A stretch of DNA of 64,000 nt, from assembly GCA_043813075.1 (NCBI GenBank), contig JBDRLL010000033.1, positions 6,574 through 70,573 on the forward strand, written 5' to 3'. The notes beneath the pieces were generated by a model that saw nothing but the letters and a program-made list of their open reading frames with translations, was not told the DNA's origin and did no database searches. Both the position numbers and the translations under genes were made by a program. Origin of the DNA: Candidatus Altiarchaeota archaeon. Its GTDB lineage: Archaea; Altiarchaeota; Altiarchaeia; IMC4; SCGC-AAA252-I15. This document shows positions 7,235 through 45,712 of this stretch, piece after piece (position 1 is the stretch's first letter; the number at the start of each line of letters is the position of its first letter).

Positions 7235-8947
7235 ATGGTGGAAGCATACTTTGAAATAAAGCGCAAGGACGGTGCAGGAAGGCTTGGTCTGCTCAGCGTT
7301 AACGGGAAGATTGTGGAGACTCCTGCCTTGATGCCGGTCTACAACATCTCGAAGCCGGTCGTGAGTGTTCAAGAGCTGGTGGGTGAATTCGGTGTCAGCG
7401 CGCTTATGACCAACGCCTACATGCTGCTAAAGAACCCTGAGCTTAAGGAAGAGGTGTTGGAGAGGGGGATACACGAGCTCATCGGCTTTGACGGCGTGAT
7501 TGCCACTGATTCGGGCAGCTACCAGCTCATGGTCTACGGGGCGGTTGAGACCACCAACAGGGACATAATCAAGTTCCAGGAGGATATTGGGTCTGACATA
7601 GGCAGCTTCCTGGACATCCCGACGCTGCCTGACGCCTACAAGCCAAGGGCGAAGCAACAGCTGGAGGAGACCATACGCAGGTCTAGGGAGGCTGTTGACG
7701 CAGGATTCCTAGTGAATGCGGGGATACAGGGTGGCGTGTACACTGACCTGCGTGAGCAGGCTGCGAGGGAGACCAGCCAGGTGTCAAAACTGGTTGCTGT
7801 CGGGGGTATAGTGCCCTTGATGGAGAAGTACCGTCTCGCAGAGCTGGTTGACGTGATAGCGACTGTAAAGAAGAACATACCCAACGACAAGGTAGTGCAC
7901 GCTTTCGGGCTCGGACACCCGATGGTGTTCGGCCTCGCGGCGCTGCTGGGGTGCGACCTGTTCGACAGCGCAGCATACGCACTATACGCGCAGGACGACA
8001 GGTACTTGACGGAGTATGGCACTGAAAAGCTTGCGGAACTGGAGTACATGCCATGCTGCTGTCCGGTGTGCAGTGAACACGGCCTAGGATTGAAGAATCT
8101 CTATGGGATGGACAGGGTTAAGGCATTGGCGAGGCATAATCTTTACGTATCGTTCACGGAGTTGAGGAGGGTGAAGCAGGCCATCACTGAAGGGAGCCTG
8201 TGGGAGCTTGTGCTGTTGAGGTGCAGGAGCCATCCCGCCTTGATGAAGGCGCTTGATGTTTTGATGACGCATTCGGAGTGGATTGCCGGTCTTGACCCCA
8301 TAACAAAGGGCACCGCATTCTATTACACTGGAGCTGAGTCAGCGGGTCGGAGCGAGGTGTTGAACGCGAGGGCGCGCATCGGGAGGGTTGAGTGCGACAA
8401 CACAATAAGGTTGATGCCCTTCGGAGATGTGCCTGCCGGGATAATGGACATATACCCTTTTGGCACCATACTGGATGATGCTGTGAACATGCCTGTTGTG
8501 AGGGACTTGGCTAAGGTGAGGGCGTTGATGGACTACCAGTTTGGGAAAGGTGCTGGAGAGCTCATACCGGATAGCGTTAGGATCAAGAGGAGCCGGAAGA
8601 CGAGGAGGATGCGGTGGATTTACGAGGGAAAGGACATGTTAGCGTCTGTGCGCGCTTCGGATCATTTCATCATACCGCACGAGAAGCTTGCTTTGCGGCT
8701 GAGGGAGAAGTTCAATGCTCCGAGACTGCGGGTCGTATTGACTGACGAGCCGGAGGCGGTCGAGTTCGTGAGGCAGGGCAAGAGCGTGATGTGCAAGTTC
8801 GTTGAGAGCGTCGACCCGGAGCTGCGTTGCGGCGACGAGTGCATTGTCGTGGACAAGGACGACGAGTTCGTGCGGACAGGGACGCTAGCATTATCACCCA
8901 GCGAGATAATGGATTTCACGCGTGGCGCTGCCGTTAAAACCAGGTAG
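7235..8947 (+). CDS. tgtA: Archaeosine tRNA-guanine transglycosylase with C-terminal PUA domain
   Basis: Motifs include LMTNAY, ATDSGSYQLMVYG and VHAFGLGHP, the Zn site CCCPVCSEH, and a C-terminal PUA-like segment (CGDECIVVDKDDEFVRTGTLALS). Confidence 0.9.
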   Translation: MVEAYFEIKRKDGAGRLGLLSVNGKIVETPALMPVYNISKPVVSVQELVGEFGVSALMTNAYMLLKNPELKEEVLERGIHELIGFDGVIATDSGSYQLMVYGAVETTNRDIIKFQEDIGSDIGSFLDIPTLPDAYKPRAKQQLEETIRRSREAVDAGFLVNAGIQGGVYTDLREQAARETSQVSKLVAVGGIVPLMEKYRLAELVDVIATVKKNIPNDKVVHAFGLGHPMVFGLAALLGCDLFDSAAYALYAQDDRYLTEYGTEKLAELEYMPCCCPVCSEHGLGLKNLYGMDRVKALARHNLYVSFTELRRVKQAITEGSLWELVLLRCRSHPALMKALDVLMTHSEWIAGLDPITKGTAFYYTGAESAGRSEVLNARARIGRVECDNTIRLMPFGDVPAGIMDIYPFGTILDDAVNMPVVRDLAKVRALMDYQFGKGAGELIPDSVRIKRSRKTRRMRWIYEGKDMLASVRASDHFIIPHEKLALRLREKFNAPRLRVVLTDEPEAVEFVRQGKSVMCKFVESVDPELRCGDECIVVDKDDEFVRTGTLALSPSEIMDFTRGAAVKTR

Positions 8948-8983
8948 GGGGACTATTATTATCGTTTATCCCATTATTACTCT

Positions 8984-11900
8984 ATGGGCAAGGTCGTCCA
9001 TCACCCAAGGCATCCTGACGCCAGGGGCAAGGTTGTTCTGCAGGAGGACGGGGAGCATCTGACCATCAGGTTTAACGAAGAGCTTCTAGGGGCTAACACC
9101 CATCTCCTGGGCAGGCTGCATGATGCCACAGGCCATACGGCACTGAAGAAGCTTGGGTCAGACAGCGTTAAGAAGCTTGTCACCGTATTGGACAGCGAGC
9201 GCGCTCACCTGGAGGAGACTGGAGGTAACGCCGATGAGAAGAGGCTTGTGGGCAGGGCGCTGGACGCACTAGTACTGCATTTGCATAGGATTGGCGAGGG
9301 ACATGATCTCCCGAACCATCTGTCGAGCCGCCACTTCTTTGCCAGGGAGTCGGAACTGCATAACCTGAGCGTTGGTGATATGAGGAGCAGGCTGTCCGCC
9401 TTCCTGTCGCCGACGAGGATCATGGACGCCAGCAATCCGGCGATGCACTTGAGGGCTATTATGACGCACAGACCGCAGAGGAGTGAAGAGGATTCGGGTT
9501 TCTTTTATGACAGTGACATACAGTGTTTCGTGAGGGATGATGTGGAGCCGATGCTTGAAAGGGATGACTTGAGCGCTAGGACAGTCAGGAGGAGCATCAG
9601 CGAGGGCCGGGTGGTGACCACACTTACCACCAGGTCAAGCCATGTCATAGAGTTCAGGGATGGATCTCCAGTCCTGACTGCGATTGGGGGTAGGAATTGC
9701 GAGCATTTGACTCTTGACAGAGACGGTAATACAACACCCTTACTTGCCGAAATCCAGGAGTCTATCGACATACATGACTTTGGTTCAAGCCCTGGGGGCA
9801 GGGCTCTCGCCAGCAGGTTGAGGCATGCTACTGAGCATATGAAATGGAAGGAGAAGCATGAGGCCCACGAGCAGTACAAGAGGCTTTGGAAGTCTCTTGG
9901 TCCTGATGAGAGGGCTGCGCTTGAGACTCCTGATGCTATCGCAGGCTTCATGGGGCCTAACTTGGGTGAGGGGGTTAGGCGTAGTATTGTTGATGGCATG
10001 CTGTCTAGGAGCATGTCGGCGGATGACGTTAGGGCAGTAGCTTCAGCGGAGTGCGTGGGTATGCTTGCGGCAGCGTATTCGAAGGAGGGTTATGGTGTTG
10101 TCGCAGACAACTATCTGGACAGGCTTGCTTCAGCCGCGCCCGCAGAGAAGGCCCTGCTCGGGCGCAGGGGTTTTGTGGAGGACTTGCGCAGTCACTTGTC
10201 TAAAGCCACTGGGGAGGATGGTCTTATGGGTCAAGTTGCGTCAAGAGTGAACGAGCTTGTGGACTATGTCGCAGACTCGTCCAGGCATCACGGGTGCAGG
10301 CAGGTGTTCACGCTCCACGGGGTTTCAAAGGCTTACTTGGGTGATAAGGACATGCGGTTGGATGTTCTGGAGGCTAATCTCCCGCAGGACGAGAGGACGC
10401 GGGCATTTCTTATAGACACTGGAATGGCAGCGTCAATGATAACAGAGTCATCTCACCGGGAGGTTCTGGTGGAGACCATGTCAAAGACCACGCCGGAGAT
10501 TGTGGACAGGATACGGGGGACTCTCGTGGAAGCCAGACTGAGGGACGGGAGCCTCACTGGATTCGGCAGGCTAGTCCTGTTCAGAGACCAGGAGAGCAGG
10601 AATGCGGTGGCCGCATGCGGTACAGTCGCGAGACTGGGGCCTTTGGCTGGTAACGCTTATCTGAACGCTGCAGTACAGAGCCTCCACGACAAGGCCACCA
10701 TCTACGCTGACCCGGATTACATAGCCCTCCTTGAGGCTTCCAGCGACGAGGCAGGCCAGGCGCTGGTCCACGGCCAGCACACCCTAGTGAATCATTGGGT
10801 GACTAACAGGGAGTTCTGGGGGAGTCAGGAGGCTAGAGCCATGTGCGGTGCCGCGGATTATAAGGTTATGAAGGCGCTTATCGCAGCGCACGATAAGTGG
10901 GAGAGGCTTCCTGACGGATTCGCCCAGGCTGGTACCGCACTCGCACAGGGCAATGCGAGTGAAGGGGAGATAGCCGCGTGGGCGAAGGCTGCTAAGGGCG
11001 GCCTGCAGAGCGCGTTGATGAATCAGGGGTGCGTGGCGAATCTCATGTCCATGGGTTCAGACCCGAACACGAGGGAGCCTAGGACTAAGGCTTTGCTGAG
11101 TGAGATGGGGGATCTTGTTGGTGAGAAAGTTTGGAGCCCGACTGGAAGGACTAGTGGGAGGAGGCGTCCTAGGGACGGCGGGGAGAATATGGGTAAGGCC
11201 ATAGTCGATACGCTGGCTGACGATGAGACTAGGAGGAGGCTGATGGGCCTCCCCAATGAGGAGGCGCTTAAAAACGGGTTCTCGCTGGCTGTGGACGAGA
11301 AGGCTCGTGGGAGAGCATACTGTGTGCCTGCGGCAGACGCCCTGCAGCATTCGGAGTTCATGCCCCCACAGATGGCTGCCATGTATCTGGGCGAGGCGAA
11401 GGAGGATCTGGACGAGCATGAGGAAGCGAGTAGGGGTAGTATGTTACGTGATAAAGCGCTCTTAAGATTGATTGCTGAGAAGCTTCCTGAGGGGGTGGCG
11501 GCCCACGTGGTCAAGATGATGGGGTCGATTCACTTCACGAGACCGGAGGAGTTGAAGGCGCTCCTGCGGGATGCTGAAGGGCCGGTTATCCCTGATGGGC
11601 TTACCGTTGAACAGGGTGGTTCACTGCTCTCGCTACAGATTGATGTTCCGGAGGGATTCCCGGTCGCTGACGTGAAGCGTGCTGTCGCAACCATGTGCGG
11701 GGCGGAGGCTGTAGCACCGACAGACTATGATGGCACGCCCATACCTGTGACGCCTGATAAGATGAAGAGCGAGAGCGTATCAACGTACATGAGCCACATG
11801 TCTGAAAAGAAGAATGACATGCACTTTGACCATGATGGGGTTGGGGGTCATTTAGAGGTTGTCAGGCAGGCGACCGAGACGTTCACCCTGCTAGGACCAC

Positions 11901-14500
11901 TCGGTTATGGTTATAGTCGCGAGGACTTTGACGGTAGGACGGAGGTATATGACTCCAGGACCGAAGTCGCGCAAGGGCTCACTGAGATGAGGCAGTTGGG
12001 CATTAAATTCAGTTACACGCCTGTCGTTGAGATGGGTGGTGAAGGCGGTAAAGAGAGGCGTGTCGTCACCACAGACCCGTGGACTTCCTACGCGTGCCAG
12101 ACTGGTTCAAGCTTGATTTTGGAGGATGCGCAGAGGATATGCGCGGATACCGGCTCGCTTCCCAGAGCATTCACGGACGGTGTTCTCGCGGGAGCTAGGA
12201 GGAGGGCGGGAAACACGGAGCCGGCAGGCCCGGAACTCCAGGCCAGCTTCCATGGAGGGATGTGCGAGCTGGCGCAACGTGTCAAGCCCATCGAGGGCTC
12301 CCTTAAGGTGGATCTGCTGGACTGGATTAGGTATGGCAACACGCACGCCCAGGTGGTTATGGATGCATTGGTAGCGGACCCGACTGCTCCAATAGCGGAA
12401 AACCTTGAGTCCAACTACTATAGTAAAGCAGAGCAGTTGGGGAAAGCGGTCGAAGGCCTGCGTAGGGTACGCAACGACTATCCCATAGACGCTGCATCAC
12501 TTGAGCCTGTGGTGTTAACCCAGACGCCGGAGGCTTGCGCAGCATTCATGAAGAGTCTGGAGCCGTTGGCTGATGACGAGAGGGGTAAGAGGCCGGAGCC
12601 TCTCCACGTTATTGCAGCCACTGCGTTAGTCAGCCCGATAGTCTCGGCGGGGGCTGACTTCACTGGAGTGACCGGTGAGGTGGGGAAGATACTGCAGGAG
12701 ACTACAGGCAACCCGTTGAGCATGCTGGTGACAGGATTAAAGCCGCTTGTAGAGGATGGGACGGTACATGACTTGGAGACTCTAGGCGCCTACGGTCACG
12801 CGTTGGCGAGAGTAACCCAGGTGAACGCTTCCAGCCAGGCGATGGAGATGGCGCTCACCCGCATCACGCCAAGGTATGAGGGGACCGAAGCACTGCCGCC
12901 CAGAAGTGTTGCAGAGGAGTGTGAAGTCTTCTGCGGATATCTCGGAGACTTTGGGCCGTCCAATATCCCGAGGCTCTACGAGACTTACCGCGGCATTAGG
13001 ATGGGTGCGGAGCCGAGTGAAGATGCGAAGGCTGCTGGCCTGACCAAGACCGGTGATCAGGGTGTGAGGCAGCTGAAGGCTTTGGAGGCGAGGGCGAGGA
13101 AGAAGCTGTTGGGCGACGACAGGAGCGTGCAGGTTGAAAGCCAGCTGGAGGCTGACATCATGACTTCGATGCTGAAGATCGAGACCAGCGACTGGGCGAG
13201 GGGTACGACTCTCGCAGACATACTGGAGCAGTTGAATGCAGCCATAGCTGACGGGCGTGTGGCGGATGTCCCAAAAGGCTATGATAGGGGGGTAATCAGG
13301 GTAGACAAGAAGGATGCCAAGGCGGTGGCTGAATTCCAGTTCCAGCCGCACGCGCACGAGAAGCTGGAGGATATCAGGGAGGACGTCAGGGCTGTGACAG
13401 GCAAGACTGTTGAAGAGGTTGTTGTGGAGGCGAGGACTGCCATAATCCAGGGCGCTGAAGCCCAGGTAAGGGCGCTTGAGGATTCACTAGCCCAGGCAGA
13501 CCCTTCAGAGAAAGGATACGCTGGCAGGAAGAAGGGCTGTGAGATGAGGATACGAAGATACAGGGAACTGGCGGAGAGGGTGAAGGACCAGGATACTGTG
13601 GAAGGCTTCGTGGAAACCGTCGCCAGCTGGGAGGGCAAGAAGGATGACGAAGTGACCACAACCCACCTTAGGAGGGTCCTGATAAGCTACGGCATGTCAC
13701 AGAAGTCTGATGGCGGCGGAAAATTCAGGAGGGCTGTCGAGTCCCCGCTCAAGGACGGTATCGAAGACGTGAATGAATTCTACGAGATACTCTTGAGGAA
13801 GCACATCCTAGGCCCCAACGACCAGGTTGAGGGTTATCTGCCGCTTTCAAAAGAAGCGAAAAAGAGGGCGCAGCAGGTGGTTCGCCAGCCCACCATAGAG
13901 GAGGAGTTGAGTAGGAGGGAGAACATTGCTGCTGCAGGGAAGGAGGAGATTCTTGTGGTGCCGTCAAGGGGATTGAGGGGTGAGACCTGCGGCTACTACT
14001 CTGACGCATGCTACACGAGCGTGAATGGCATGCTTGAGGGGCACCCCAACATAGTGCCACTAACGCTTGTGAGAGGCCCTGAGACACCGTCAGAGAGGAT
14101 TATCGGCGGTGTGCTGGTGATAGAGGCTCAGACAGCTGAGAGAAGGGGTCTTGGAGGGGAAGTGATCCCATCAGAAAAGGTTCTGGTGCTGAGGGCAGTG
14201 AACCCGCAGGAGACTGCCATCAGGGCGCTCAAGGCGGACAGTTTCATGGAAGAATTCATTGACGGGTATGTCGTCCCAACTGCACGTAAGAGGGGTGCTA
14301 TGAGGATACTCGTAGCCAAGAGCGCTGCTGGCGCTTCCATGACCAACAGGCCAAGCATAGCGGACTACGTGAACGGGGAGGGAAGTCCATACGAGAGCGC
14401 TGAGGTGATACCGCTCGCTGATGAGCCTCCGAGCACATTCAACGGCTATGACATAAGAGGCAAGTGCGTGCTGGTGAGAGACCTTGCTAAATCAGCATAG
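8984..14500 (+). CDS. Giant orphan protein (1838 aa), predicted cytoplasmic, no recognisable domain
   Basis: This is a single uninterrupted ORF with no signal peptide or TM segment. It is rich in Ala/Glu/Arg/Gly/Leu. It has its own AT-rich box (ctattattatcg, 8953-8964) about 25 nt upstream of the ATG, which suggests a leaderless transcript. All other frames contain only short shadow ORFs. Confidence 0.8.
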   Translation: MGKVVHHPRHPDARGKVVLQEDGEHLTIRFNEELLGANTHLLGRLHDATGHTALKKLGSDSVKKLVTVLDSERAHLEETGGNADEKRLVGRALDALVLHLHRIGEGHDLPNHLSSRHFFARESELHNLSVGDMRSRLSAFLSPTRIMDASNPAMHLRAIMTHRPQRSEEDSGFFYDSDIQCFVRDDVEPMLERDDLSARTVRRSISEGRVVTTLTTRSSHVIEFRDGSPVLTAIGGRNCEHLTLDRDGNTTPLLAEIQESIDIHDFGSSPGGRALASRLRHATEHMKWKEKHEAHEQYKRLWKSLGPDERAALETPDAIAGFMGPNLGEGVRRSIVDGMLSRSMSADDVRAVASAECVGMLAAAYSKEGYGVVADNYLDRLASAAPAEKALLGRRGFVEDLRSHLSKATGEDGLMGQVASRVNELVDYVADSSRHHGCRQVFTLHGVSKAYLGDKDMRLDVLEANLPQDERTRAFLIDTGMAASMITESSHREVLVETMSKTTPEIVDRIRGTLVEARLRDGSLTGFGRLVLFRDQESRNAVAACGTVARLGPLAGNAYLNAAVQSLHDKATIYADPDYIALLEASSDEAGQALVHGQHTLVNHWVTNREFWGSQEARAMCGAADYKVMKALIAAHDKWERLPDGFAQAGTALAQGNASEGEIAAWAKAAKGGLQSALMNQGCVANLMSMGSDPNTREPRTKALLSEMGDLVGEKVWSPTGRTSGRRRPRDGGENMGKAIVDTLADDETRRRLMGLPNEEALKNGFSLAVDEKARGRAYCVPAADALQHSEFMPPQMAAMYLGEAKEDLDEHEEASRGSMLRDKALLRLIAEKLPEGVAAHVVKMMGSIHFTRPEELKALLRDAEGPVIPDGLTVEQGGSLLSLQIDVPEGFPVADVKRAVATMCGAEAVAPTDYDGTPIPVTPDKMKSESVSTYMSHMSEKKNDMHFDHDGVGGHLEVVRQATETFTLLGPLGYGYSREDFDGRTEVYDSRTEVAQGLTEMRQLGIKFSYTPVVEMGGEGGKERRVVTTDPWTSYACQTGSSLILEDAQRICADTGSLPRAFTDGVLAGARRRAGNTEPAGPELQASFHGGMCELAQRVKPIEGSLKVDLLDWIRYGNTHAQVVMDALVADPTAPIAENLESNYYSKAEQLGKAVEGLRRVRNDYPIDAASLEPVVLTQTPEACAAFMKSLEPLADDERGKRPEPLHVIAATALVSPIVSAGADFTGVTGEVGKILQETTGNPLSMLVTGLKPLVEDGTVHDLETLGAYGHALARVTQVNASSQAMEMALTRITPRYEGTEALPPRSVAEECEVFCGYLGDFGPSNIPRLYETYRGIRMGAEPSEDAKAAGLTKTGDQGVRQLKALEARARKKLLGDDRSVQVESQLEADIMTSMLKIETSDWARGTTLADILEQLNAAIADGRVADVPKGYDRGVIRVDKKDAKAVAEFQFQPHAHEKLEDIREDVRAVTGKTVEEVVVEARTAIIQGAEAQVRALEDSLAQADPSEKGYAGRKKGCEMRIRRYRELAERVKDQDTVEGFVETVASWEGKKDDEVTTTHLRRVLISYGMSQKSDGGGKFRRAVESPLKDGIEDVNEFYEILLRKHILGPNDQVEGYLPLSKEAKKRAQQVVRQPTIEEELSRRENIAAAGKEEILVVPSRGLRGETCGYYSDACYTSVNGMLEGHPNIVPLTLVRGPETPSERIIGGVLVIEAQTAERRGLGGEVIPSEKVLVLRAVNPQETAIRALKADSFMEEFIDGYVVPTARKRGAMRILVAKSAAGASMTNRPSIADYVNGEGSPYESAEVIPLADEPPSTFNGYDIRGKCVLVRDLAKSA

Positions 14501-14501
14501 A

Positions 14502-15281
14502 TTATCCGACAGTACCTATCCGGAATAGCCTGCAGTCGTGTTTAGAGCAGATTTTCTCGAGGCTGACATAATCATATTCTGATAGGGTGATTATGAAGTT
14601 GTCTAGGTTCCTTGCCATCGGGTAGGGTAGGTCGGCGCTTAGTGTGAATCTATTTCCTGACTTCTCGCTCATCTCATACACGACCGAAACCAGCCCGCCT
14701 TTGGTGACGTCCTTAGCGGAGTTGACTTTGACTCCGGACGCTAGTGCCGCATACCATGCCCCGAACATTTTCCTGGCCTTCCCTAGCCTCTCATCCATCC
14801 CACCCCATAGGGGCTCGCCGAGGAGGCATATTATGTCACCGTTTTCCGCCCCTGAGTCCCGGATGGGCTCGTCAAGCAGGAGTTCGCCCAACACGGTGAG
14901 GCTGCAGCGCGGTTCCACATCCTCGAAGAGGGTGTTGCCGCCGAGTAGGGGGATTTTCAATGCGAGTGACTGTTTCTTGAGTGAATCAATCATCTCCCCC
15001 AGATCGGCCTTGGGGCCTATTATTGAGTCCATTGCGAATAGCGGCCTGCCGCCCTTGACGACGACGTCTGTCGCCGCATGAACCAGAGCACTCTTCAAGA
15101 CCAGGCGCTTGCTGTACGGCCCGTCGACGCTCGCAAGGAGGCGGCCTTTGAAGTCCACACATACGGAGTCATCCCAGTCCCTGACACCCATAACCGGGTT
15201 GGCCAGCTCGTCCATATCCAGGAGCTTCTCCCGTATCCACTCTAGGGCTTTAACATACTTCTCAGAGACGTCGTCTGCCAT
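14502..15281 (-). CDS. AIR synthase (PurM)-related ATP-binding protein (ThiL/HypE/SelD-like superfamily)
   Basis: The N-domain signature is SVDGPYSK...HAATDVVVKGGRPLFAMDSIIGP and the C-domain is GGNT...SAKDVTKGGL. The protein is shorter (259 aa) than canonical PurM. Confidence 0.5.
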   Translation of the reverse strand: MADDVSEKYVKALEWIREKLLDMDELANPVMGVRDWDDSVCVDFKGRLLASVDGPYSKRLVLKSALVHAATDVVVKGGRPLFAMDSIIGPKADLGEMIDSLKKQSLALKIPLLGGNTLFEDVEPRCSLTVLGELLLDEPIRDSGAENGDIICLLGEPLWGGMDERLGKARKMFGAWYAALASGVKVNSAKDVTKGGLVSVVYEMSEKSGNRFTLSADLPYPMARNLDNFIITLSEYDYVSLEKICSKHDCRLFRIGTVG

Positions 15282-15716
15282 TCACACCATCTCCCTCAGC
15301 TTGTCAAGACCAGGGCACATCCTGGAGTCAGTGCAGAACCAGATGCCGTAGAGCCGGTAGAATGGGAATTCACGGCATACAGCCGGCCTGTGCCCGTGCA
15401 CCCTGCACTTGTCGTCCTTAAGGAAGACACAGCGGCCGTTAACCCGCTTCAGGGAGCCTTCCCCATCTACGCTGGCGGAGAAGCCGGTTTCACCCGCGTC
15501 CGCGAGCCTCTTAACGTCTTCAGGAGTAACGGGGGTTATCCTAAAGCGGCAGCAGTTACCACAGCACGTGCACTTGAATTCATGCCTCACACGGCCTAGG
15601 AGATAGGCTCGATGCATCTTAGGCAGGATTGCCGCTATTACCCCAGCGACCATGAAGACGAGTACCGTTAAGACTGAGAACATGGAGAGAGGGTCGACCA
15701 TAATAAGATTCTGCAA
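15282..15716 (-). CDS. YkgJ-family (UPF0153) Cys-cluster zinc/iron-chelating protein with N-terminal TM helix
   Basis: It carries the CTCCGNCCRF motif plus downstream Cys residues (CVFLKDDKCRVH, CREFP). It abuts the upstream gene. Confidence 0.65.
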   Translation of the reverse strand: MQNLIMVDPLSMFSVLTVLVFMVAGVIAAILPKMHRAYLLGRVRHEFKCTCCGNCCRFRITPVTPEDVKRLADAGETGFSASVDGEGSLKRVNGRCVFLKDDKCRVHGHRPAVCREFPFYRLYGIWFCTDSRMCPGLDKLREMV

Positions 15717-15800
15717 TACAAAATAAAAAAATCAGGGGGAAAATAGGGCAGTATTTTTAAAGGAAAACAACATAAGATTAAACGCTTTTAATTCCGGGGA

Positions 15801-16211
15801 ATGGTGATGCCAGGTAAAAAAACAGTTAAAAAAACTAGTAAAAAACCAAAACCTACTTCTAAAAAGAAGTCTCCAGGAAAAACAGGCAACAAGGTTGCTA
15901 AGGAAAATACGGCTAAAAAGTCTGTGAAAAAGAAGTCCACGATGGATAAAAAACCTAAAACCAATGCGAAAACGAAGGCGGCGCCGAAGGCGAAGACTAT
16001 TAAGTGCTGTAAGCACTGCGTGGACTACGAGCACTGCAAGGATAAGGGGGAATGCTGCAACTACTGCGACTTCTACTTCAAGGGCAAGTGCATGTACGAG
16101 AAGGAGAAGAACCTGATACCCAAGGACCCTTGCGTCATAGAGATGAACGACTATAGGGGAGACGATTTCGGTATAGACGACCACGAAGCCTACGAGTCAC
16201 TCTACGAGTAG
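15801..16211 (+). CDS. Small protein with a Lys-rich basic N-terminal tail, Cys-rich core and acidic C-terminus
   Basis: The 136-aa protein has about 65 aa of KK-rich sequence, then CCKHCVDYEHCKDKGECCNYCDFYFKGKC, then an acidic end. An AT-rich promoter-like region lies at 15717-15800. The antisense ORF 15732-16184 has an implausible composition. Confidence 0.55.
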   Translation: MVMPGKKTVKKTSKKPKPTSKKKSPGKTGNKVAKENTAKKSVKKKSTMDKKPKTNAKTKAAPKAKTIKCCKHCVDYEHCKDKGECCNYCDFYFKGKCMYEKEKNLIPKDPCVIEMNDYRGDDFGIDDHEAYESLYE

Positions 16212-17008
16212 TTCATGCTGCCTGTGCGGTAACCTTTAAGGTCCATCGTAACCCGATTGAATCCAAGCCCCAACAGCCTATCAGAGATTATGTCCCTATT
16301 ATCGTATACTTTATCAAATTCTCCTGGATCAACCTCTATTACTGCAACATCGCCTAAACACCTGACCCTCACCTGCCTGACACCTAATGACCTGACCACC
16401 GACTCCGCGTCTGAGACCGTGGACAGTAACTCCCCGGTTATCTCGGTGCCGTATGGGATTCTTGAGGCGAGGCATGCGGTAGACGGCTTGTCGTGGTTTG
16501 GGAGTCGGAGAGACTCAGAAAGAGCGCGCACGTCATCCTTGGTGAACCCAAGTTCTGCTAGGGGGCTTAGAATCCCCATCTCCCTAAGAGCCATGTAGCC
16601 GGGCCTGTGTCCTCTAATCTCACTGGCATTAGTGCCCTCCACGATTGTCTTGACCCCGTATTCGGCAGCAATCTTACGCATCTTCAAGGCCAGCTCATGC
16701 TTACAGTAGTAGCAACGGTCTTCAGGATTGGACTTGAAGCCTTCACTAGCCAGCTCGTTGTGGGGGCACAGGATATGATTTATGCCGATGACCCCCGCTA
16801 TCTCGCCGGCAGAACCGACTTCACTCGGGTCTGATGTTGGGGATACGAGAGTGACTGCGATTGCCTTTTCACCCAGCGTGTCGTGGGAGACCTTAGCCAG
16901 GAGGCTGGAGTCCACACCCCCTGAGAACGCTATTATCACCCCATCAAGGCCTTTGAAGAAGTCTGATAGGCGCTGTTTTTTAGCCTTCAAATCCTCTGGC
17001 ATAAGCAT
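16202..17008 (-). CDS. larE: LarE-like PP-loop ATP-dependent sulfur transferase (COG1606)
   Basis: It has the PP-loop IAFSGGVDSS and the LarE-type TACLASRIPYG cysteine motif. Confidence 0.75.
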   Translation of the reverse strand: MLMPEDLKAKKQRLSDFFKGLDGVIIAFSGGVDSSLLAKVSHDTLGEKAIAVTLVSPTSDPSEVGSAGEIAGVIGINHILCPHNELASEGFKSNPEDRCYYCKHELALKMRKIAAEYGVKTIVEGTNASEIRGHRPGYMALREMGILSPLAELGFTKDDVRALSESLRLPNHDKPSTACLASRIPYGTEITGELLSTVSDAESVVRSLGVRQVRVRCLGDVAVIEVDPGEFDKVYDNRDIISDRLLGLGFNRVTMDLKGYRTGSMNYS

Positions 17009-17037
17009 ATATTACCGGTGAAAAACTATAAGAATAC

Positions 17038-18304
17038 GATGGTCGAATCGAGGATGCCGGGATTCTACAAGAAGACTGTTGGTGAGCGGAGAAGAGAGGT
17101 TGTCGGGCAGGCAGGATTGAGCGGTGAGGAGGAGGATTGCCTCAAGTCTGGGGGGCTTGACGAGAAGACTTCAGACAGGATGATAGAGAACGTTGTTGGA
17201 TTGTTCAGCCTGCCGCTTGGAGTTGCGACAAACTTCCTGATAAACGGGAGAGACTACCTGATACCCATGGCCACTGAGGAGCCTTCCGTGGTGGCTGCCG
17301 CGAGCAATGCCGCCAAGATGGCTCGTGGCTCGGGCGGTTTCACTGTGGAGTCCGGAGACCAGCTGATGATTGGTCAGATACAGGTTGTTGGTGTTGACCC
17401 GGGGGAAGCTGGTGAGAAGGTTTTAGCTGGTGAGGAAGGTCTGCTGGAGCTCGCAAACCAGCAGGATCCGGTTCTTGTTAAGTTCGGCGGGGGTGCGAGG
17501 AGGATAGAGGCGAGAAGTATTGACACGAAAGAGGGTCCTATGCTGGTAGTCCACGTTATAGTGGATGTCAGGGATGCGATGGGCGCTAACGCAGTCAACA
17601 CCATGTGTGAGGCGCTTGCACCTGAGATAGAATCGTTGACTGGGGGGGAGGCCATACTGAGGATAATATCAAATTATGCGGTGGAAAGGGTTGTTAAGGC
17701 GAGTGCATTGTTCCCTGCCGAGAAGTTGGGGGGTGATCGTGTTGTGGAGAGAATCTTGAAAGCCTATGCTCTTGCTGACGCTGACGTTCACAGGGCGGTC
17801 ACACACAACAAGGGGATTATGAACGGGATAAGCGCGGTTGTCAGGGCGACTGGCAACGACACGCGAGCCGTTGAAGCGGGATGCCACGCCTACGCGTGCC
17901 GTGACGGCAGGTACAGGAGCCTAACAAGGCACATGATAAACGGGGATGGGGACTTGGAGGCGAGTATTGAAGTTCCTATCGCAGTCGGCATAATAGGCGG
18001 CGCCACGAAAAGCCATCCGGTAGCCCATGCGGCACTGAAGATTATGGGGGTTAAAAGCGCTGGAGAGCTTTCCGGCATAATAGCGGCGGTTGGGCTTGCC
18101 CAGAACCTGGCTGCACTGAGGGCTCTGAGCGATGAGGGCATACAGAAGGGTCATATGGGACTGCACGCTAGAAACATTGCGGTAATGGCAGGTGCTGGAG
18201 ACGAAATCGTTGATGAGGTTGCTAGAGAACTTGCCGAATCGGGGACGGTAAGGATGGATAAGGCTAGGGAGATTATTAAAAAGATAAAGGAAAAGTCCGT
18301 TTAA
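17038..18304 (+). CDS. hmgA: HMG-CoA reductase, class II
   Basis: It is collinear with the Pseudomonas mevalonii-type enzyme: SRMPGF, ENVVG, EEPSVVAAAS, VDVRDAMGANAVN, THNKGIMNGI, GGATKSHP and IQKGHMGLHARNIAV. I chose the ATG at 17038 over the GTG at 17018 by N-terminal analogy. Confidence 0.92.
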
Positions 18305-18435
18305 TGCATTAGACCATACTCGTAGCCTATCTTCATGCCAATCAAGAATGCGGCGCCAACCAGTGTTGAAACCACTATGCCGACCAGCGTGAATTCAAGC
18401 TGCATGAAACCTTCCTTGGTTTTAGGTAGCATCAT
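18301..18435 (-). CDS. Possible 44-aa single-TM micro-protein
   Basis: This manual ORF is below the track threshold: MMLPKTKEGFMQLEFTLVGIVVSTLVGAAFLIGMKIGYEYGLMH. It lies 46 nt downstream of map on the same strand. Confidence 0.3.
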   Translation of the reverse strand: MMLPKTKEGFMQLEFTLVGIVVSTLVGAAFLIGMKIGYEYGLMH

Positions 18436-43882: not shown

Positions 43883-44001
43883 CGGTCAACGGCCATAGCG
43901 GAGGGGCAACACCCGCAACCATTCCGAACGCGGAAGTAAAGTCCTCCAGCGATCCATACAGTACTGCTTACAAAGTGGGAATTATGGGACGCTGTTGACC
44001 A
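43883..44001 (+). rRNA. rrf: 5S ribosomal RNA, not linked to 16S/23S in this window
   Basis: The sequence GGTCAACGGCCATAGCGGAGGGGCAACACCCGCAACCATTCCGAACGCGGAAGTAAAGTCCTCCAGCGATCC...GCTGTTGACC has the terminal helix GGTCAAC/GTTGACC. The TATA-like box tttttatatta lies about 25 nt upstream. Confidence 0.9.
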
Positions 44002-44068: not shown

Positions 44069-45712
44069 ATGGACGAATACCAGAGGATAATAACAGGGAT
44101 AATCAGGGGGGATATTTCCACTAGAAGCCAGTTGGATGAGGAGAAGAGGCGGCTGTCATCTGAACTGGGCTTAGACCATTTCATACGGAACAGCGACATA
44201 CTCAAGCACGCTAACGCCGAGGAGAGGAAGGCGATAAAGAGGTTCCTCCAGAAGAAGCCCATGAGAAGCATGTCTGGTGTCGCGGTGGTTGCGGCAATGA
44301 CCATGCCCAGCAGGTGCCCGCACGGCAAGTGCAGGTACTGCCCCGGCGGCCCGGACACCAACGTGCCCCAGAGTTACACCGGAAAGGAGCCTGCGACACG
44401 CAGGGCCATACAGTACGGCTTCAACCCCTACTTGCAGACCACGTTCAGGCTCCACCAGCTGAAGACCATAGGTCATCCGATAGACAAGGTGGAGTTGATC
44501 GTGATGGGGGGGACGCTTACCGCACAGTGCCTTGACTATCAGGACTGGTTTGTGAAGGAATGCCTCCTGGCCATGAATGATTATGACGTGAACGGCAGGC
44601 GGATTATCGAGATTGGTGAGGAAGGATTCATCAAGGAATATGAGTCTTCACCCAAGACGTTCTCCTATAGGGAGGACGTGCAGGAGGGGAATGAGAGGGC
44701 TAGCGTTAGGTGTGTTGGAATAACCTTCGAGCCGAGGCCGGACTGGGCCAAACGGGAGCAGATAGGATTCATGCTGGACTTCGGCGTGACCAGGGTGGAG
44801 GTTGGGGTTCAGAATCCGGACGACATGGTGTATGAGCATGTGGAGAGGGGTCATACTGTGGCTGATGTCGTGGAGTCCACGCAACTATTGAAGGATTCAG
44901 GGATCAAGGTGGGCTACCACATGATGCCTGGCATAATGGGCTACGACCATGATTCGGACTTGAATGCCTTCAAGAGTATTTTCAACAGACAGGAGTTCAG
45001 GCCCGACATGGTGAAGATATACCCGTGCATAGTCCTGAAGGGAACTGATTACTACAGGAGGTGGGTGGACGGAGAGTTCGAGCCCATGACCACCGGGCAG
45101 GCTGTGGACTTGATCGCTGAAGTCAAAGGCATGATGCCAAAGTGGGTTAGGACCATGCGAATCATGAGGGACATACCCAGCAACCTTATTGAGGCAGGCA
45201 TAAAGTCGAGCAACCTGGGGCAGATGGTTTACAGGAGGATGAGGGAGAAGGGGATAAAATGCAGTTGCATCAGGTGCAGGGAGGTTGGAAGATTCATGGA
45301 GAAGGGTGTGGAGCCTGACCCAGACGACATAAGGATAGTGCGGGAGGATTATGACGCTAGCGGAGGCAGGGAAGTGTTCCTAAGCTTCGAGGACGTTAAG
45401 AAGGACATACTAATCGGGTTCACCCGCCTGAGGATACCTTATAGGCCATTCCGCCCTGAGATAACAGAGGATTCCGGGCTCATAAGGGAGCTTCACGTCT
45501 ACGGCCCCATGGTGGAGATAGACGAGAGGCCTGAATACGAGTGGCAGCACAGGGGGTACGGCACCGAGTTGATAGGTGAGGCTGAGAGGATTGCCGCAGA
45601 GGATTTCGGGCTCGGCAGGATGGTCATCACGTCAGGCATCGGCGTGAGAGAGTACTACCGTAGGATGGGCTACTCGCGGGATGGGGCCTACATGAGCAAG
45701 AGCCTAGTTTAG
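44069..45712 (+). CDS. elp3: Elp3-type radical SAM / GNAT tRNA modification enzyme
   Basis: It has the radical SAM cluster CPHGKCRYCPGG and a C-terminal GNAT region (HRGYGTELIGEAERIA). Confidence 0.9.
   Translation: MDEYQRIITGIIRGDISTRSQLDEEKRRLSSELGLDHFIRNSDILKHANAEERKAIKRFLQKKPMRSMSGVAVVAAMTMPSRCPHGKCRYCPGGPDTNVPQSYTGKEPATRRAIQYGFNPYLQTTFRLHQLKTIGHPIDKVELIVMGGTLTAQCLDYQDWFVKECLLAMNDYDVNGRRIIEIGEEGFIKEYESSPKTFSYREDVQEGNERASVRCVGITFEPRPDWAKREQIGFMLDFGVTRVEVGVQNPDDMVYEHVERGHTVADVVESTQLLKDSGIKVGYHMMPGIMGYDHDSDLNAFKSIFNRQEFRPDMVKIYPCIVLKGTDYYRRWVDGEFEPMTTGQAVDLIAEVKGMMPKWVRTMRIMRDIPSNLIEAGIKSSNLGQMVYRRMREKGIKCSCIRCREVGRFMEKGVEPDPDDIRIVREDYDASGGREVFLSFEDVKKDILIGFTRLRIPYRPFRPEITEDSGLIRELHVYGPMVEIDERPEYEWQHRGYGTELIGEAERIAAEDFGLGRMVITSGIGVREYYRRMGYSRDGAYMSKSLV

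What the first reader, a model, noticed from the sequence alone, without database searches (positions are those of the whole stretch)
8984..14500. 1838-aa cytoplasmic orphan giant protein with no recognisable domains
This is a continuous 5.5-kb ORF between tgtA and a PurM-like gene, with its own TATA-like box about 25 nt before the ATG. It has no signal peptide or TM segment, and I found no Walker, HExxH, repeat or coiled-coil signature. It is Ala/Glu/Arg/Gly/Leu-rich and probably largely helical. The last 230 aa or so look like a separate mixed alpha/beta globular domain with a Cys cluster (LRGETCGYYSDACYTSVNG ... VLVLRAVNPQE ... RILVAKSAAGASMTNRP ... GYDIRGKCVLVRDL). Sampled lines are GC-richer (about 57-60%) than neighbouring genes, but AGG and ATA codons are still used, so this may be a composition effect and not recent transfer. 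Cytoplasmic archaeal proteins of this size without any known domain are rare.
Basis: partly seen in the sequence, partly recalled or inferred. Interest (0 to 1): 0.7.

Follow-up and report, generated by a model that had tools for sequence, protein, structure and literature searches.

The report
Giant mosaic protein with hidden GNAT-like domain
The 1838-residue archaeal protein is a real native gene but not an orphan: its last ~530 residues belong to a large, unnamed family of big bacterial and archaeal proteins that end in a helical domain plus an acetyltransferase-like (GNAT) fold with an invariant cysteine, joined here to a 1190-residue front part found in only one other genome.

Summary
The ORF at 8984-14500 (+) is real. 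It has no Pfam, NCBIfam, PADLOC or PDB sequence hit, no TM segment, no internal repeats, native GC3 and codon usage, and a TATA-like box about 26 nt before the ATG. It is not an orphan.

- **N-terminal part:** a related MAG (L001) has a syntenic 1817-aa ortholog, 35% identical over aa 1-1189 and unrelated after that.
- **C-terminal part:** an exhaustive HMMER search found 613 cluster representatives, almost all matching aa ~1310-1835. On aligned members the match lies at the C-terminus of 900-1700-aa proteins. Named sources are Patescibacteria, Altiarchaeota and a Myxococcaceae MAG, all "hypothetical". The closest fragment matches from aa 1191.
- **Architecture:** the protein is therefore a mosaic with a sharp junction near aa 1190.
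- **Fold:** AlphaFold2 with an alignment (pLDDT 92) shows a helical domain (aa 1306-1646) packed on a domain with GNAT topology (aa 1647-1838). The best Foldseek hits are GNAT enzymes (αTAT1, AtaT/KacT/TacT, HAT1), with probability up to 0.98 but weak E-values.
- **Conserved residues:** C1676, G1708, R1737, P1741 and N1820 are invariant. The CoA "P-loop" is atypical (R-G-x-N-P).
- **Context:** no neighbour is conserved in about 67 loci, and nothing was found in phage, plasmid or viral collections.

Best reading: a divergent GNAT-fold acyltransferase module on a lineage-specific scaffold. Substrate and chemistry are unknown.

The parts
8954..8962 (+). TATA-like element (TATTATTAT), centred about 26 nt upstream of the ATG. 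It probably drives a leaderless or near-leaderless transcript.
   Evidence: Read directly from the sequence. A similar TATTATA lies about 29 nt upstream of the ortholog's ATG in L001. No Shine-Dalgarno-like GGAGG/GGTG in the spacer. Function is inferred, not shown.
8984..14500 (+). Coding sequence of the 1838-aa (200 kDa, pI 5.5) protein, stop codon included.
   Evidence: Intact in the window. N-terminal ortholog intact in L001. C-terminal family found.
8984..12553 (+). N-terminal module, aa 1-1190. Lineage-specific and fast-evolving, with no detectable domain. Inferred to be a scaffold or targeting part.
   Evidence: 35 % identity to L001:11749-15312 over aa 1-1189, against 55-75 % for flanking genes. 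No other relative in the exhaustive search of aa 639-1190. None in 79 fetched loci, in a metagenome pattern scan, in PDB or in Pfam. hhalign shows no relation to the N-terminal regions of other family members.
12554..12898 (+). aa 1191-1305: start of the C-terminal module as seen in the closest relative. Acidic linker or subfamily-specific extension.
   Evidence: P0002 aligns from aa 1191 to 1834 at 41 %, while its first 229 aa are unrelated. The wider family starts matching at about aa 1310.
12899..13921 (+). aa 1306-1646: all-helical domain of the family module, holding the conserved motif G-[IV]-T-x-T-G-x-x-G-[ILV]-x-Q-L (G1352, G1357, G1360, L1364).
   Evidence: AF2 model m5297b6a23f8e, pLDDT 92, pTM 0.87. 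Conservation.
13922..14497 (+). aa 1647-1838: GNAT-fold domain (b1-a1/a2-b2-b3-b4-a3-b5-a4-b6), the most widespread core of the family.
   Evidence: Secondary-structure order in the model matches the GNAT topology described in PMC4964394. Top Foldseek PDB hits are GNAT enzymes, probability 0.90-0.98, E 0.04-0.1. The only meaningful viral-library hit is a GNAT protein.
13961..14014 (+). aa 1660-1677, PSRGLRGETCGYYSDACY. Family signature P-x-R-G-x-x-x-E-x-[SC]-G-x-x-x-D-A-C-[WY] in the a1/a2 (acceptor-site) region. Invariant C1676 is at nt 14009-14011.
   Evidence: Among 110 aligned members: P1660 98 %, R1662 95 %, E1667 98 %, G1670 96 %, D1674 88 %, C1676 100 %.
14192..14206 (+). aa 1737-1741, RAVNP (family R-[GA]-x-N-P), at the b4-a3 junction where GNATs carry the pyrophosphate-binding P-loop. 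An atypical version of Q/R-x-x-G-x-G/A.
   Evidence: R1737 100 %, N1740 95 %, P1741 100 %. Position taken from the model. Consensus from PMC4964394. The role is inferred.
14342..14353 (+). aa 1787-1790, TNRP, at the start of a4 (motif-B position). Y1795 lies seven residues after N1788, at nt 14366-14368.
   Evidence: N1788 99 %, R1789 95 %. Position 1795 is Y 59 %, F 15 %, H 14 %. The motif-B analogy rests on my own knowledge of GNATs and is inferred.
14438..14449 (+). aa 1819-1822, FNGY, just before b6.
   Evidence: F1819 99 %, N1820 100 %, Y1822 95 %.

Best explanation
The ORF is a genuine, native, probably leaderless-transcribed gene of an Altiarchaeota-related archaeon. It encodes a mosaic cytoplasmic protein.

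The two parts:
- Residues 1-1190 are a lineage-specific, fast-evolving module seen in only one other genome. There it carries a different C-terminus.
- Residues ~1191/1306-1838 are a member of a large family with no Pfam or NCBIfam model, found at the C-terminus of 900-1700-aa proteins in Patescibacteria, Altiarchaeota and other uncultivated lineages.

This C-terminal module folds as one unit: a helical domain packed against a divergent GNAT-fold domain.

Most likely mechanism (inferred):
- The GNAT-like domain binds an acyl-CoA in the b4/b5 cleft.
- The R1737-x-x-N1740-P1741 loop takes the place of the P-loop, and N1788/R1789 sit at the start of a4.
- The acyl group is transferred to an amine of a protein or small-molecule acceptor bound by the a1/a2 signature region (R1662, E1667, D1674, invariant C1676).
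- C1676 acts as general acid or as an acyl-accepting nucleophile.
- The helical domain and the giant N-terminal module select or scaffold the substrate.

Shown: the gene is real and native, it is a mosaic, it belongs to the family, and it has the fold and the conserved residues. Inferred: CoA dependence, acyl transfer, the role of the Cys, and the scaffold role.
For: - **Real and native:** intact 1838-codon ORF. GC3 0.65 and a CAI-like index of 0.74 are typical of the window, and AGG/ATA usage is typical too. Both ends are anchored in a gene order (serS-CBS-CBS-tgtA ... PurM-like-CxxCxxCC-LarE-HMGR) shared in large part with three related MAGs.
- **Ortholog:** L001:11749-17202, 1817 aa, 35 % identity over aa 1-1189.
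- **Family:** 613 representatives with E<=1e-3, and 361 with E<=1e-10. Coverage is concentrated on aa 1310-1835. Among 110 aligned members the match ends 0-5 residues from the C-terminus in nearly all.
- **Mosaic junction:** L001 shares aa 1-1189, P0002 shares aa 1191-1834. The family HMM finds no module anywhere in the L001 locus.
- **Fold:** AF2 with a 29-sequence alignment gives pLDDT 92.1 and pTM 0.87 with GNAT strand/helix order. In Foldseek against PDB, 20 of the top 21 hits are GNAT-fold proteins (αTAT1 4pk2, KacT 5zgn/5xun, AtaT 7chd/6gtq, TacT3 6g96, HAT1 7xay), with probabilities up to 0.98. A Klosneuvirus GNAT protein scores probability 0.91.
- **Active-site-like conservation:** polar residues C1676, R1737 and N1820 are 100 % conserved, and E1667, N1788, R1662, R1789 and N1740 are 95 % or more.
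- **Literature:** atypical P-loops occur in bona fide GNATs (PMC4964394).
Against: - No sequence-level link to any GNAT model or structure, even with a domain-only profile at permissive thresholds.
- No Foldseek hit reaches E<=1e-3, and TM-scores normalised to the targets are only 0.38-0.52.
- The canonical P-loop glycines are replaced by N-P, and Pro has no backbone NH.
- The Tyr at the general-acid position is only 59 % conserved.
- Cysteines in GNAT active sites studied so far were not catalytic (PMC8072286).
- No conserved neighbours give a functional hint.
- The L001 ortholog lacks the module, so whatever the N-terminal module does does not need it.
- No expression or biochemical data.
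Confidence: 0.55

Rival explanations
1. The GNAT scaffold is used for different chemistry. Candidates are an aminoacyl-tRNA- or acyl-ACP-dependent transferase (as in Fem, L/F-transferase, ATE1 or HlyC), a decarboxylase (as in malonyl-CoA decarboxylase or CurA GNAT), or a truly covalent Cys-dependent enzyme such as an amidase or ligase, with C1676 as nucleophile.
For: - The P-loop is non-canonical (R-G-x-N-P), which fits a donor other than CoA.
- The invariant Cys sits in the a1/a2 region.
- Malonyl-CoA decarboxylase (helical N-domain plus GNAT) is among the Foldseek hits, though poorly: 4ks9, probability 0.47, rmsd 16.
- AtaT bound to acetyl-Met-tRNA is one of the best hits.
- GNATs are known to perform succinylation, condensation and decarboxylation (PMC8072286 abstract).
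Against: - No conserved His that would complete a Cys-His dyad or triad (no His column at 50 % or more in aa 1640-1838).
- All parts are acidic (pI 4.8-5.7; family medians 5.6-5.7), which does not favour tRNA binding.
- The hit to malonyl-CoA decarboxylase is of low quality.
Confidence: 0.2
2. The GNAT-like domain is a non-catalytic (pseudo-enzyme) binding or dimerisation module, and the whole protein is a structural or scaffolding component.
For: - Loss of the canonical P-loop glycines.
- Very large, probably helical, repeat-free N-terminal regions that differ between members.
- The L001 ortholog works without the module.
Against: - Invariant or nearly invariant polar residues (C, R, N, E, D) are kept across members that share only about 20-40 % identity. 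That pattern is typical of an active or ligand-binding site.
- The module is kept as a rigid two-domain unit (pTM 0.87).
Confidence: 0.15
3. It is a toxin or effector: a polymorphic-toxin-like or toxin-antitoxin-like GNAT toxin delivered to, or acting against, other cells. The variable N-terminal modules would serve delivery and the conserved C-terminal module would be the warhead.
For: - Modular shuffling: the same N-module carries two different C-termini (window and L001), and the same C-module sits on at least five unrelated N-terminal types.
- The best structural neighbours include the tRNA-acetylating toxins AtaT, KacT and TacT.
- The family occurs in lineages often described as episymbionts or predators (Patescibacteria, Myxococcaceae; characterisation from my own knowledge).
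Against: - No immunity or antitoxin-like gene. In the window a conserved convergent gene starts 1 nt after the stop, and no neighbour recurs in about 67 loci.
- No signal peptide, TM segment or known secretion domain.
- No PADLOC hit.
- Absent from phage, plasmid and viral collections.
- The module is conserved, not hypervariable.
- Acidic pI.
Confidence: 0.07
4. One reading: a true orphan without any domain. A related alternative is a spurious or strain-specific non-expressed ORF.
For: No hit in Pfam, NCBIfam, PADLOC or PDB sequences. The word-indexed searches returned nothing but the protein itself.
Against: 613 cluster representatives in the exhaustive search. A syntenic intact ortholog. 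A confident fold. Native codon usage.
Confidence: 0.02

Closest known systems
GNAT (Gcn5-related N-acetyltransferase) superfamily, acyl-CoA N-acyltransferase fold
   Same: Same strand/helix order b1-a1-a2-b2-b3-b4-a3-b5-a4-b6 (PMC4964394). Nearly all the best structural neighbours are GNATs. A conserved Arg at the b4-a3 junction and a conserved Asn at the start of a4 occupy the places of motifs A and B.
   Different: No sequence-profile similarity to any GNAT model or structure. The P-loop is R-G-x-N-P in place of Q/R-x-x-G-x-G/A. There is an invariant Cys in the a1/a2 region. The domain is always fused after a ~340-aa helical domain at the end of 900-1800-aa proteins.
tRNA-acetylating GNAT toxins AtaT / KacT / TacT (type II toxin-antitoxin)
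   Same: Highest Foldseek probabilities (0.97-0.98; 7chd, 5zgn, 6gtq, 5xun, 6g96), with 153-197 aligned columns. An aromatic residue, Tyr in 59 % of members, lies at the a4 position where these toxins have their catalytic Tyr (Y144/Y145 named in the PDB titles).
   Different: Those toxins are ~160-180-aa stand-alone chains. From my own knowledge they are basic proteins with an adjacent antitoxin gene. Here the domain ends a 200-kDa acidic protein with no conserved neighbour. Sequence identity is 9-13 %.
alpha-tubulin acetyltransferase αTAT1 / MEC-17
   Same: Best Foldseek E-value (4pk2_A, 0.042; many αTAT1 entries in the top 50). It is a protein-lysine acetyltransferase with a divergent GNAT core.
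   Different: Eukaryotic, acts on tubulin, about 190-aa catalytic domain. No Pfam hit of any kind, so none to its family model. TM about 0.38, identity 8-10 %.
Multidomain GNAT enzymes with a large non-GNAT part: bacterial protein acetyltransferase Pat/PatZ (YfiQ), malonyl-CoA decarboxylase, and NatA (Naa15 scaffold + Naa10)
   Same: Same general logic: a large helical or regulatory part presents substrates to, or regulates, a small C-terminal GNAT-fold catalytic domain. Malonyl-CoA decarboxylase (helical N-domain + GNAT) and Naa20 appear among the hits.
   Different: None of their diagnostic domains is detectable here: no acyl-CoA-synthetase-like, TPR or MCD models. The resemblance is architectural only and rests partly on my own knowledge of those proteins.

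Membership tests
GNAT superfamily | Core fold b1-a1-a2-b2-b3-b4-a3-b5-a4-b6 (PMC4964394) | tested here: met
   AF2 model (pLDDT 92): E345-355, short helices 359-381, E385-392, E400-412, E427-436, H446-464, E469-473, H485-492, E523-528 (model numbering + 1305).
GNAT superfamily | Significant structural similarity to solved members | tested here: inconclusive
   20 of the top 21 PDB hits are GNAT-fold proteins, with probability up to 0.98. But the best E-value is 0.042, no hit reaches 1e-3, and TM normalised to the target is 0.38-0.52. The query was a two-domain model and could not be cropped.
GNAT superfamily | Pyrophosphate-binding P-loop Q/R-x-x-G-x-G/A at b4-a3 | tested here: not met
   The family has R(100 %)-[GA]-x-N(95 %)-P(100 %)-x. 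A regex finds no canonical motif in the domain. Atypical P-loops exist in true GNATs (PMC4964394), so this lowers the case for membership but does not exclude it.
GNAT superfamily | Match to a sequence model of the clan (Pfam Acetyltransf_*, Mec-17, FemAB and others; NCBIfam) | tested here: not met
   No hit at E<=10 for the window domain. No family is hit by more than one of 29 members. Nothing in NCBIfam. The domain-only profile against PDB gives only noise.
GNAT superfamily | Binds acyl-CoA and transfers the acyl group | not testable with these tools
   Needs biochemistry or ligand co-folding.
GNAT toxins of type II TA systems (AtaT/KacT/TacT) | Small stand-alone toxin with an adjacent antitoxin gene | tested here: not met
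   The domain is the end of an 1838-aa protein. The downstream gene is a conserved convergent PurM-like gene. No recurrent neighbour in about 67 loci.
GNAT toxins of type II TA systems (AtaT/KacT/TacT) | Catalytic Tyr in a4 | tested here: inconclusive
   Y1795 is present in the window protein, but the column is Y 59 %, F 15 %, H 14 %.
Polymorphic toxin systems | N-terminal secretion or trafficking domain, variable C-terminal toxin, immunity gene immediately downstream | tested here: not met
   No signal peptide, TM segment or known domain. No room for an immunity gene, since the convergent gene starts 1 nt after the stop. No conserved downstream gene. Only the modular shuffling resembles them.
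Known anti-phage defence proteins | Match to a PADLOC model | tested here: not met
   No hit at E<=1.
Unnamed 'helical + GNAT-like C-terminal module' family defined here | Full-length match to the ~530-aa module at the C-terminus, with the signature P-x-R...E-x-[SC]-G-x-x-x-D-A-C-[WY], R-[GA]-x-N-P, T-N-R-P, F-N-G-Y | tested here: met
   Family HMM score 447.9 bits, E 1.3e-134, HMM positions 35-557. All signature residues are present, with Y for W at 1677, C for S at 1669 and A for G at 1738.

The most novel reading that the evidence does not exclude
The C-terminal module may be a new enzyme class built on a GNAT-like scaffold, in which the invariant Cys1676 is a true catalytic nucleophile. 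That has not been established for GNATs studied so far. Evolution would recombine this module onto unrelated giant N-terminal 'adaptor' modules across bacteria and archaea. This would amount to a modular, cytoplasmic or contact-delivered effector system typical of uncultivated lineages such as Patescibacteria and Altiarchaeota.
Probability: 0.15. Interest if true: 0.7.

Novelty: new variant of a known kind. Interest (0 to 1): 0.45.

Why it matters
If correct, hundreds of "hypothetical" 100-200 kDa proteins gain a first fold-level annotation and a set of testable active-site residues. These proteins come from Patescibacteria, Altiarchaeota and other uncultivated lineages. From my own knowledge, Patescibacteria have genomes of about 1 Mb, where a 4-5 kb gene is a large investment.

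It would also add to the GNAT superfamily a branch that current profile libraries miss. That branch has an atypical CoA loop and an invariant cysteine.

The window and L001 give a clean natural example of module exchange at a defined junction (aa ~1190) between closely related genomes. Such a case is useful for asking what the giant N-terminal parts do.

Even so, it remains a prediction without a substrate, so its present value is as a lead and not as a discovery.

Tried and rejected
**Searches that returned nothing**
- Word-indexed homology searches found nothing beyond the protein itself: full length, aa 1-640, aa 1590-1838. One search did not even return the self-hit, so these negatives are weak. 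The exhaustive search superseded them for aa 639-1838 only. Residues 1-638 have therefore not been searched exhaustively.
- Pfam on the whole protein and on eight tiles, plus two L001 segments, at E<=10 gave only isolated noise: Peptidase_A2_2, FeoB_Cyto, DUF6279, DUF3954. NCBIfam, PADLOC and PDB sequences gave nothing.
- Profile searches against PDB gave only noise. The whole-module profile returned coiled-coil hits, the domain-only profile returned S100 and NDK at E>1, and the N-module profile returned nothing.
- The metagenome scan with N-module peptide patterns gave no relative.
- Automatic pattern design from alignment A2 failed because the alignment is too diverse. A hand-made degenerate pattern replaced it.

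**Models and comparisons that failed**
- Single-sequence AF2 of aa 1190-1838 had pLDDT 41 and was unusable.
- The second giant ORF in the window (47750-52912) is unrelated, so it is not a paralog.

**Hypotheses rejected**
- Phage, plasmid or viral origin: no tblastn hit in phage or plasmid records, and no signature match in IMG/VR.
- Recent horizontal transfer judged from GC: rejected by GC3, the CAI-like index and codon usage.
- Split gene in L001: the family HMM finds nothing in any frame of the 21.7-kb locus.
- Relic of the gene in MAGs that lack it: only a 13.5-bit, 40-aa match in L002. This is not convincing.
- Functional link to the adjacent tgtA (tRNA modification): adjacency is seen only in the window and L001, whose ortholog lacks the module; tgtA is absent from the six annotated family loci and no neighbour recurs in ~67 loci.
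- Nucleic-acid binding judged from charge: all parts are acidic.
Full report
**1. The observation**

The window holds a single uninterrupted ORF at 8984..14500 on the + strand: 1838 codons, ATG start. Its neighbours are as follows.
- Upstream is archaeal tRNA-guanine(15) transglycosylase tgtA (7235-8947; TIGR00432, E 1e-149).
- Downstream and convergent, starting 1 nt after the stop, is a short PurM/AIRS-like gene (14502-15281).
- After that come a CxxCxxCC protein, a 150-aa ORF, LarE and a class-II HMG-CoA reductase.

The 36-nt spacer before the ATG holds TATTATTAT at 8954-8962, centred about 26 nt upstream, and has no Shine-Dalgarno-like sequence. The ortholog in L001 has TATTATA about 29 nt upstream of its ATG in a 35-nt spacer. 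This fits an archaeal TATA box driving a leaderless transcript. That reading is an inference.

Other checks on the protein and gene:
- The protein is 200 kDa with pI 5.5 and is rich in A, L, G, E and R.
- The N-terminus is hydrophilic, and the highest 19-residue hydropathy mean is 1.53, so there is no TM-grade segment.
- Self-BLAST finds no internal repeats.
- Regex searches find no Walker A, HExxH, CxxC or GxGxxG motif.
- GC is 55-59 % along the gene against about 50-54 % around it.
- GC3 (0.65) and a CAI-like index (0.74) are in the middle of the window's range. The extra GC sits in codon positions 1 and 2.
- AGG and ATA usage follows the local pattern.

**2. Not recognisable by sequence profiles**

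None of these searches gave a credible hit:
- Pfam on the whole protein and on eight overlapping tiles at E<=10.
- NCBIfam.
- PADLOC.
- PDB sequences.

Three word-indexed searches of the 5.8-billion-protein database returned only the protein itself or nothing. One search failed to return even the self-hit, so I treat these negatives as weak.

**3. Not an orphan: the N-terminal module**

I scanned one genome per species with the neighbouring tgtA and recovered four loci.

In L001 (uncultured archaeon SRP077602_co7_59; tgtA 75 % identical) the gene order is the same as in the window: serS, CBS, CBS, tgtA, giant ORF, PurM-like, CxxCxxCC, LarE, HMGR. An intact 1817-aa ORF (L001:11749-17202) follows tgtA. 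It aligns with the window protein at 35 % identity over residues 1-1189. Flanking proteins are 55-75 % identical, so this gene evolves fast. After residue 1189 there is no similarity at all.

Two Candidatus Altiarchaeota MAGs (L002 and L004; tgtA 62-64 %) go from tgtA to the PurM-like gene within 0.6-1.2 kb and lack the giant gene.

The N-module was found nowhere else:
- Only the L001 protein (P0008) matched residues 639-1190 in the exhaustive search.
- Nothing in 79 fetched loci.
- Nothing in a metagenome pattern scan.
- Nothing in PDB.
- Nothing in Pfam for either ortholog.

**4. Not an orphan: the C-terminal module**

I ran an exhaustive phmmer search of residues 639-1838 against 1.84 billion cluster representatives. 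It gave 613 proteins at E<=1e-3, 361 at E<=1e-10 and 37 at E<=1e-30.
- Apart from the L001 ortholog, the listed hits map to the last part of the query. In protein numbering, coverage rises at about residue 1310 and is highest over 1620-1835.
- Among 110 aligned members the match ends 0-5 residues from the C-terminus in nearly all. It is preceded by 0-1170 residues.
- Members are typically 900-1700 aa, and only 3 of 149 have a TM-grade hydrophobic segment.
- Six tested members have no Pfam domain.
- Across 29 members, no Pfam family is hit by more than one, even at E<=10.
- Named members are all "hypothetical protein". They come from Candidatus Altiarchaeota (MFC2154670.1), Patescibacteria (MEK7159445.1), Candidatus Magasanikbacteria (HBU06828.1) and a Myxococcaceae MAG (MFN0062078.1).
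- A degenerate DNA pattern for the signature motif found 68 metagenome loci, 60 of them confirmed by the family HMM, with GC from 24 to 62 %. It found none in 2.9 million viral contigs.
- tblastn found nothing in phage or plasmid records.

**5. Mosaic architecture**

The closest relative of the C-terminal part is P0002, an N-terminally truncated fragment. It aligns at 41 % from residue 1191 to 1834, and its preceding 229 residues are unrelated to the window protein. The L001 ortholog shares residues 1-1189. The two homologies therefore meet at a sharp junction near residue 1190 (nt ~12554).

Supporting points:
- The family HMM finds one copy of the module in the window and none in any frame of the L001 locus, so L001 does not have a split gene.
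- The N-terminal regions of other members fall into several mutually unrelated clusters of 58, 12, 12, 9 and 7.
- hhalign shows that neither the window's N-module nor the L001 C-terminus is related to these clusters.
- Both ends of the window gene are anchored in conserved synteny, so an assembly chimera is very unlikely.
- In a neighbour-joining tree the window module is sister to P0002. It sits in a small clade with the Altiarchaeota protein P0003, with P0007 and, next outward, P0017. P0007 has bacterial-type neighbours, namely sigma-70 region 4 and patatin/POTRA, and P0017 is from the Myxococcaceae MAG. The module has crossed the domain boundary, and the direction is unresolved.

**6. What the module is**

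A single-sequence AlphaFold2 run was useless (pLDDT 41). With a 29-sequence alignment (A2), residues 1306-1838 gave pLDDT 92.1 and pTM 0.87.
- Residues 1306-1646 are an all-helical domain.
- Residues 1647-1838 have the order b1, short a1/a2 helices, b2, b3, b4, a3, b5, a4, b6. This is the GNAT core topology as described in PMC4964394.

Foldseek against PDB gave no hit at E<=1e-3. However, 20 of the top 21 hits are GNAT-fold proteins:
- αTAT1/MEC-17: 4pk2, E 0.042.
- KacT: 5zgn, probability 0.97.
- AtaT: 7chd, probability 0.98, TM to target 0.46.
- TacT3 and HAT1.
- Malonyl-CoA decarboxylase (4ks9), poorly aligned.
- Naa20, further down at rank 50.

In the viral library the only meaningful hit is a Klosneuvirus GNAT protein with probability 0.91.

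At sequence level there is no link. A domain-only profile (A3) against PDB gave only noise. The GNAT assignment therefore rests on the model, its topology and the consistent ranking of neighbours. I hold it at roughly 75-80 %.

**7. Conserved residues**

Among 110 aligned members:
- **a1/a2 region**, which forms the acceptor site in GNATs: P1660, R1662, E1667, [S/C]1669, G1670, D1674, A1675, C1676 (100 %), [W/Y]1677.
- **b3:** G1708 (100 %), E1714.
- **b4-a3 junction:** R1737 (100 %), [G/A], x, N1740 (95 %), P1741 (100 %). GNATs have the pyrophosphate-binding loop Q/R-x-x-G-x-G/A here, so this version is atypical. Atypical loops are documented in bona fide GNATs (PMC4964394).
- **Start of a4:** T-N1788-R1789-P, with an aromatic residue seven positions later (Y1795; Y 59 %, F 15 %, H 14 %). 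From my own knowledge of the superfamily this recalls GNAT motif B (N..A..LY).
- **Before b6:** F1819-N1820 (100 %)-G-Y1822.

There is no conserved His.

According to PMC8072286, Tyr and Cys can act as general acids in GNATs, and a Cys or Ser nucleophile would be needed for a ping-pong mechanism. The same paper reports that cysteines examined in GNAT active sites so far were not catalytic. The role of C1676 is therefore open and is the most interesting point.

**8. Context**

Six family members on long contigs have unrelated neighbourhoods. I clustered all ORFs within 4 kb of the gene in about 67 loci. No neighbour family was present in more than 7 loci, and that one occurs on either side of the gene. 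There is no antitoxin, immunity or operon partner.

All parts of the window protein are acidic (pI 4.8-5.7), and the family medians are 5.6-5.7. This gives no support for tRNA or DNA as substrate.

**9. Interpretation**

The best-supported reading is a divergent GNAT-fold acyltransferase module (helical domain plus catalytic domain) fused to a lineage-specific giant N-terminal module that scaffolds or targets it.

Shown:
- The gene is real and native.
- It is a mosaic with a junction near residue 1190.
- Its C-terminal part belongs to a large family that the profile libraries searched here do not recognise.
- The fold and the conserved residues are as described.

Inferred:
- Acyl-CoA dependence.
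- Acyl transfer to an amine.
- The role of C1676.
- The scaffold function of the N-terminal part.

Rivals are other chemistry on the same scaffold (0.2), a non-catalytic domain (0.15) and a toxin or effector (0.07). The orphan or artefact reading is refuted.

**10. Verdict**

No profile library recognises the protein, but it is not an orphan and it is not domain-less.

It is a new variant of a known kind. The GNAT-like family is missed by current libraries and has an unusual CoA loop, an invariant Cys and a modular giant architecture.

Interest is moderate (0.45). It gives a useful annotation lead for hundreds of large dark-matter proteins and a tidy case of module exchange, but there is no substrate, no expression data and no strongly surprising mechanism yet.

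Noticed in passing
window 47750-52912 (-): A second giant ORF (1720 aa, GTG start), unrelated to the finding. It is Cys-rich, with GC3 0.735, and has only a weak CarboxypepD_reg hit at aa 1578-1630. It is probably a secreted or surface protein. The next ORF on the same strand (52973-54370, 465 aa) has no Pfam hit.
   Followed up: partly
window 38015-40762 (+): A 915-aa protein with an S_layer_C (S-layer outer domain) hit. It is likely the S-layer protein of this archaeon.
   Followed up: no
window 43885-44000 (+): A stand-alone 5S rRNA gene (71 bits, E 5e-13), 69 nt upstream of an ELP3-like radical-SAM/GNAT gene (44069-45712). There are no other rRNA genes and no tRNA genes in the 64 kb.
   Followed up: no
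window 14502-17008 (-); L001 18325-20800; also L002 and L004: A gene group made of a short PurM/AIRS-like protein (259 aa, weak ThiL/SelD/HypE-like hits), a CxxCxxCC zinc/iron-chelating protein (144 aa), a 150-aa ORF without hits, and the LarE sacrificial sulfur transferase. The PurM-like, CxxCxxCC and LarE genes recur in L001 and L004, and only the PurM-like gene was detected in L002. It may be a cofactor- or sulfur-insertion module, and its function is unclear.
   Followed up: no
L001 15313-17202 and 17203-18324: The ortholog's C-terminal ~630 aa replace the GNAT-like module with a charged region that has no homolog found here. An extra 1.1 kb follows it, holding a 362-aa ORF (17234-18322, +, no Pfam hit) or a 150-aa ORF on the other strand. 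The window has no equivalent region.
   Followed up: partly
L002 12662-12883 (+): In an Altiarchaeota MAG that lacks the giant gene, a 74-aa ORF lies in the tgtA / PurM-like gap. It gives a 13.5-bit, 40-aa match to the helical domain's most conserved motif (…LGxxKxGxEEIxQLK…). The match is too weak to call a relic, and it is unexplained.
   Followed up: partly
window 17018-18304 (+): The HMG-CoA reductase is of the class-II, NAD-type ('degradative') family (TIGR00532, E 2e-138), not the NADPH type.
   Followed up: no
tool behaviour: The word-indexed protein search missed the whole family of more than 600 clusters and also the L001 ortholog. In one search it missed even the self-hit. 'No homolog' from that tool alone would have wrongly confirmed orphan status.
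   Followed up: yes
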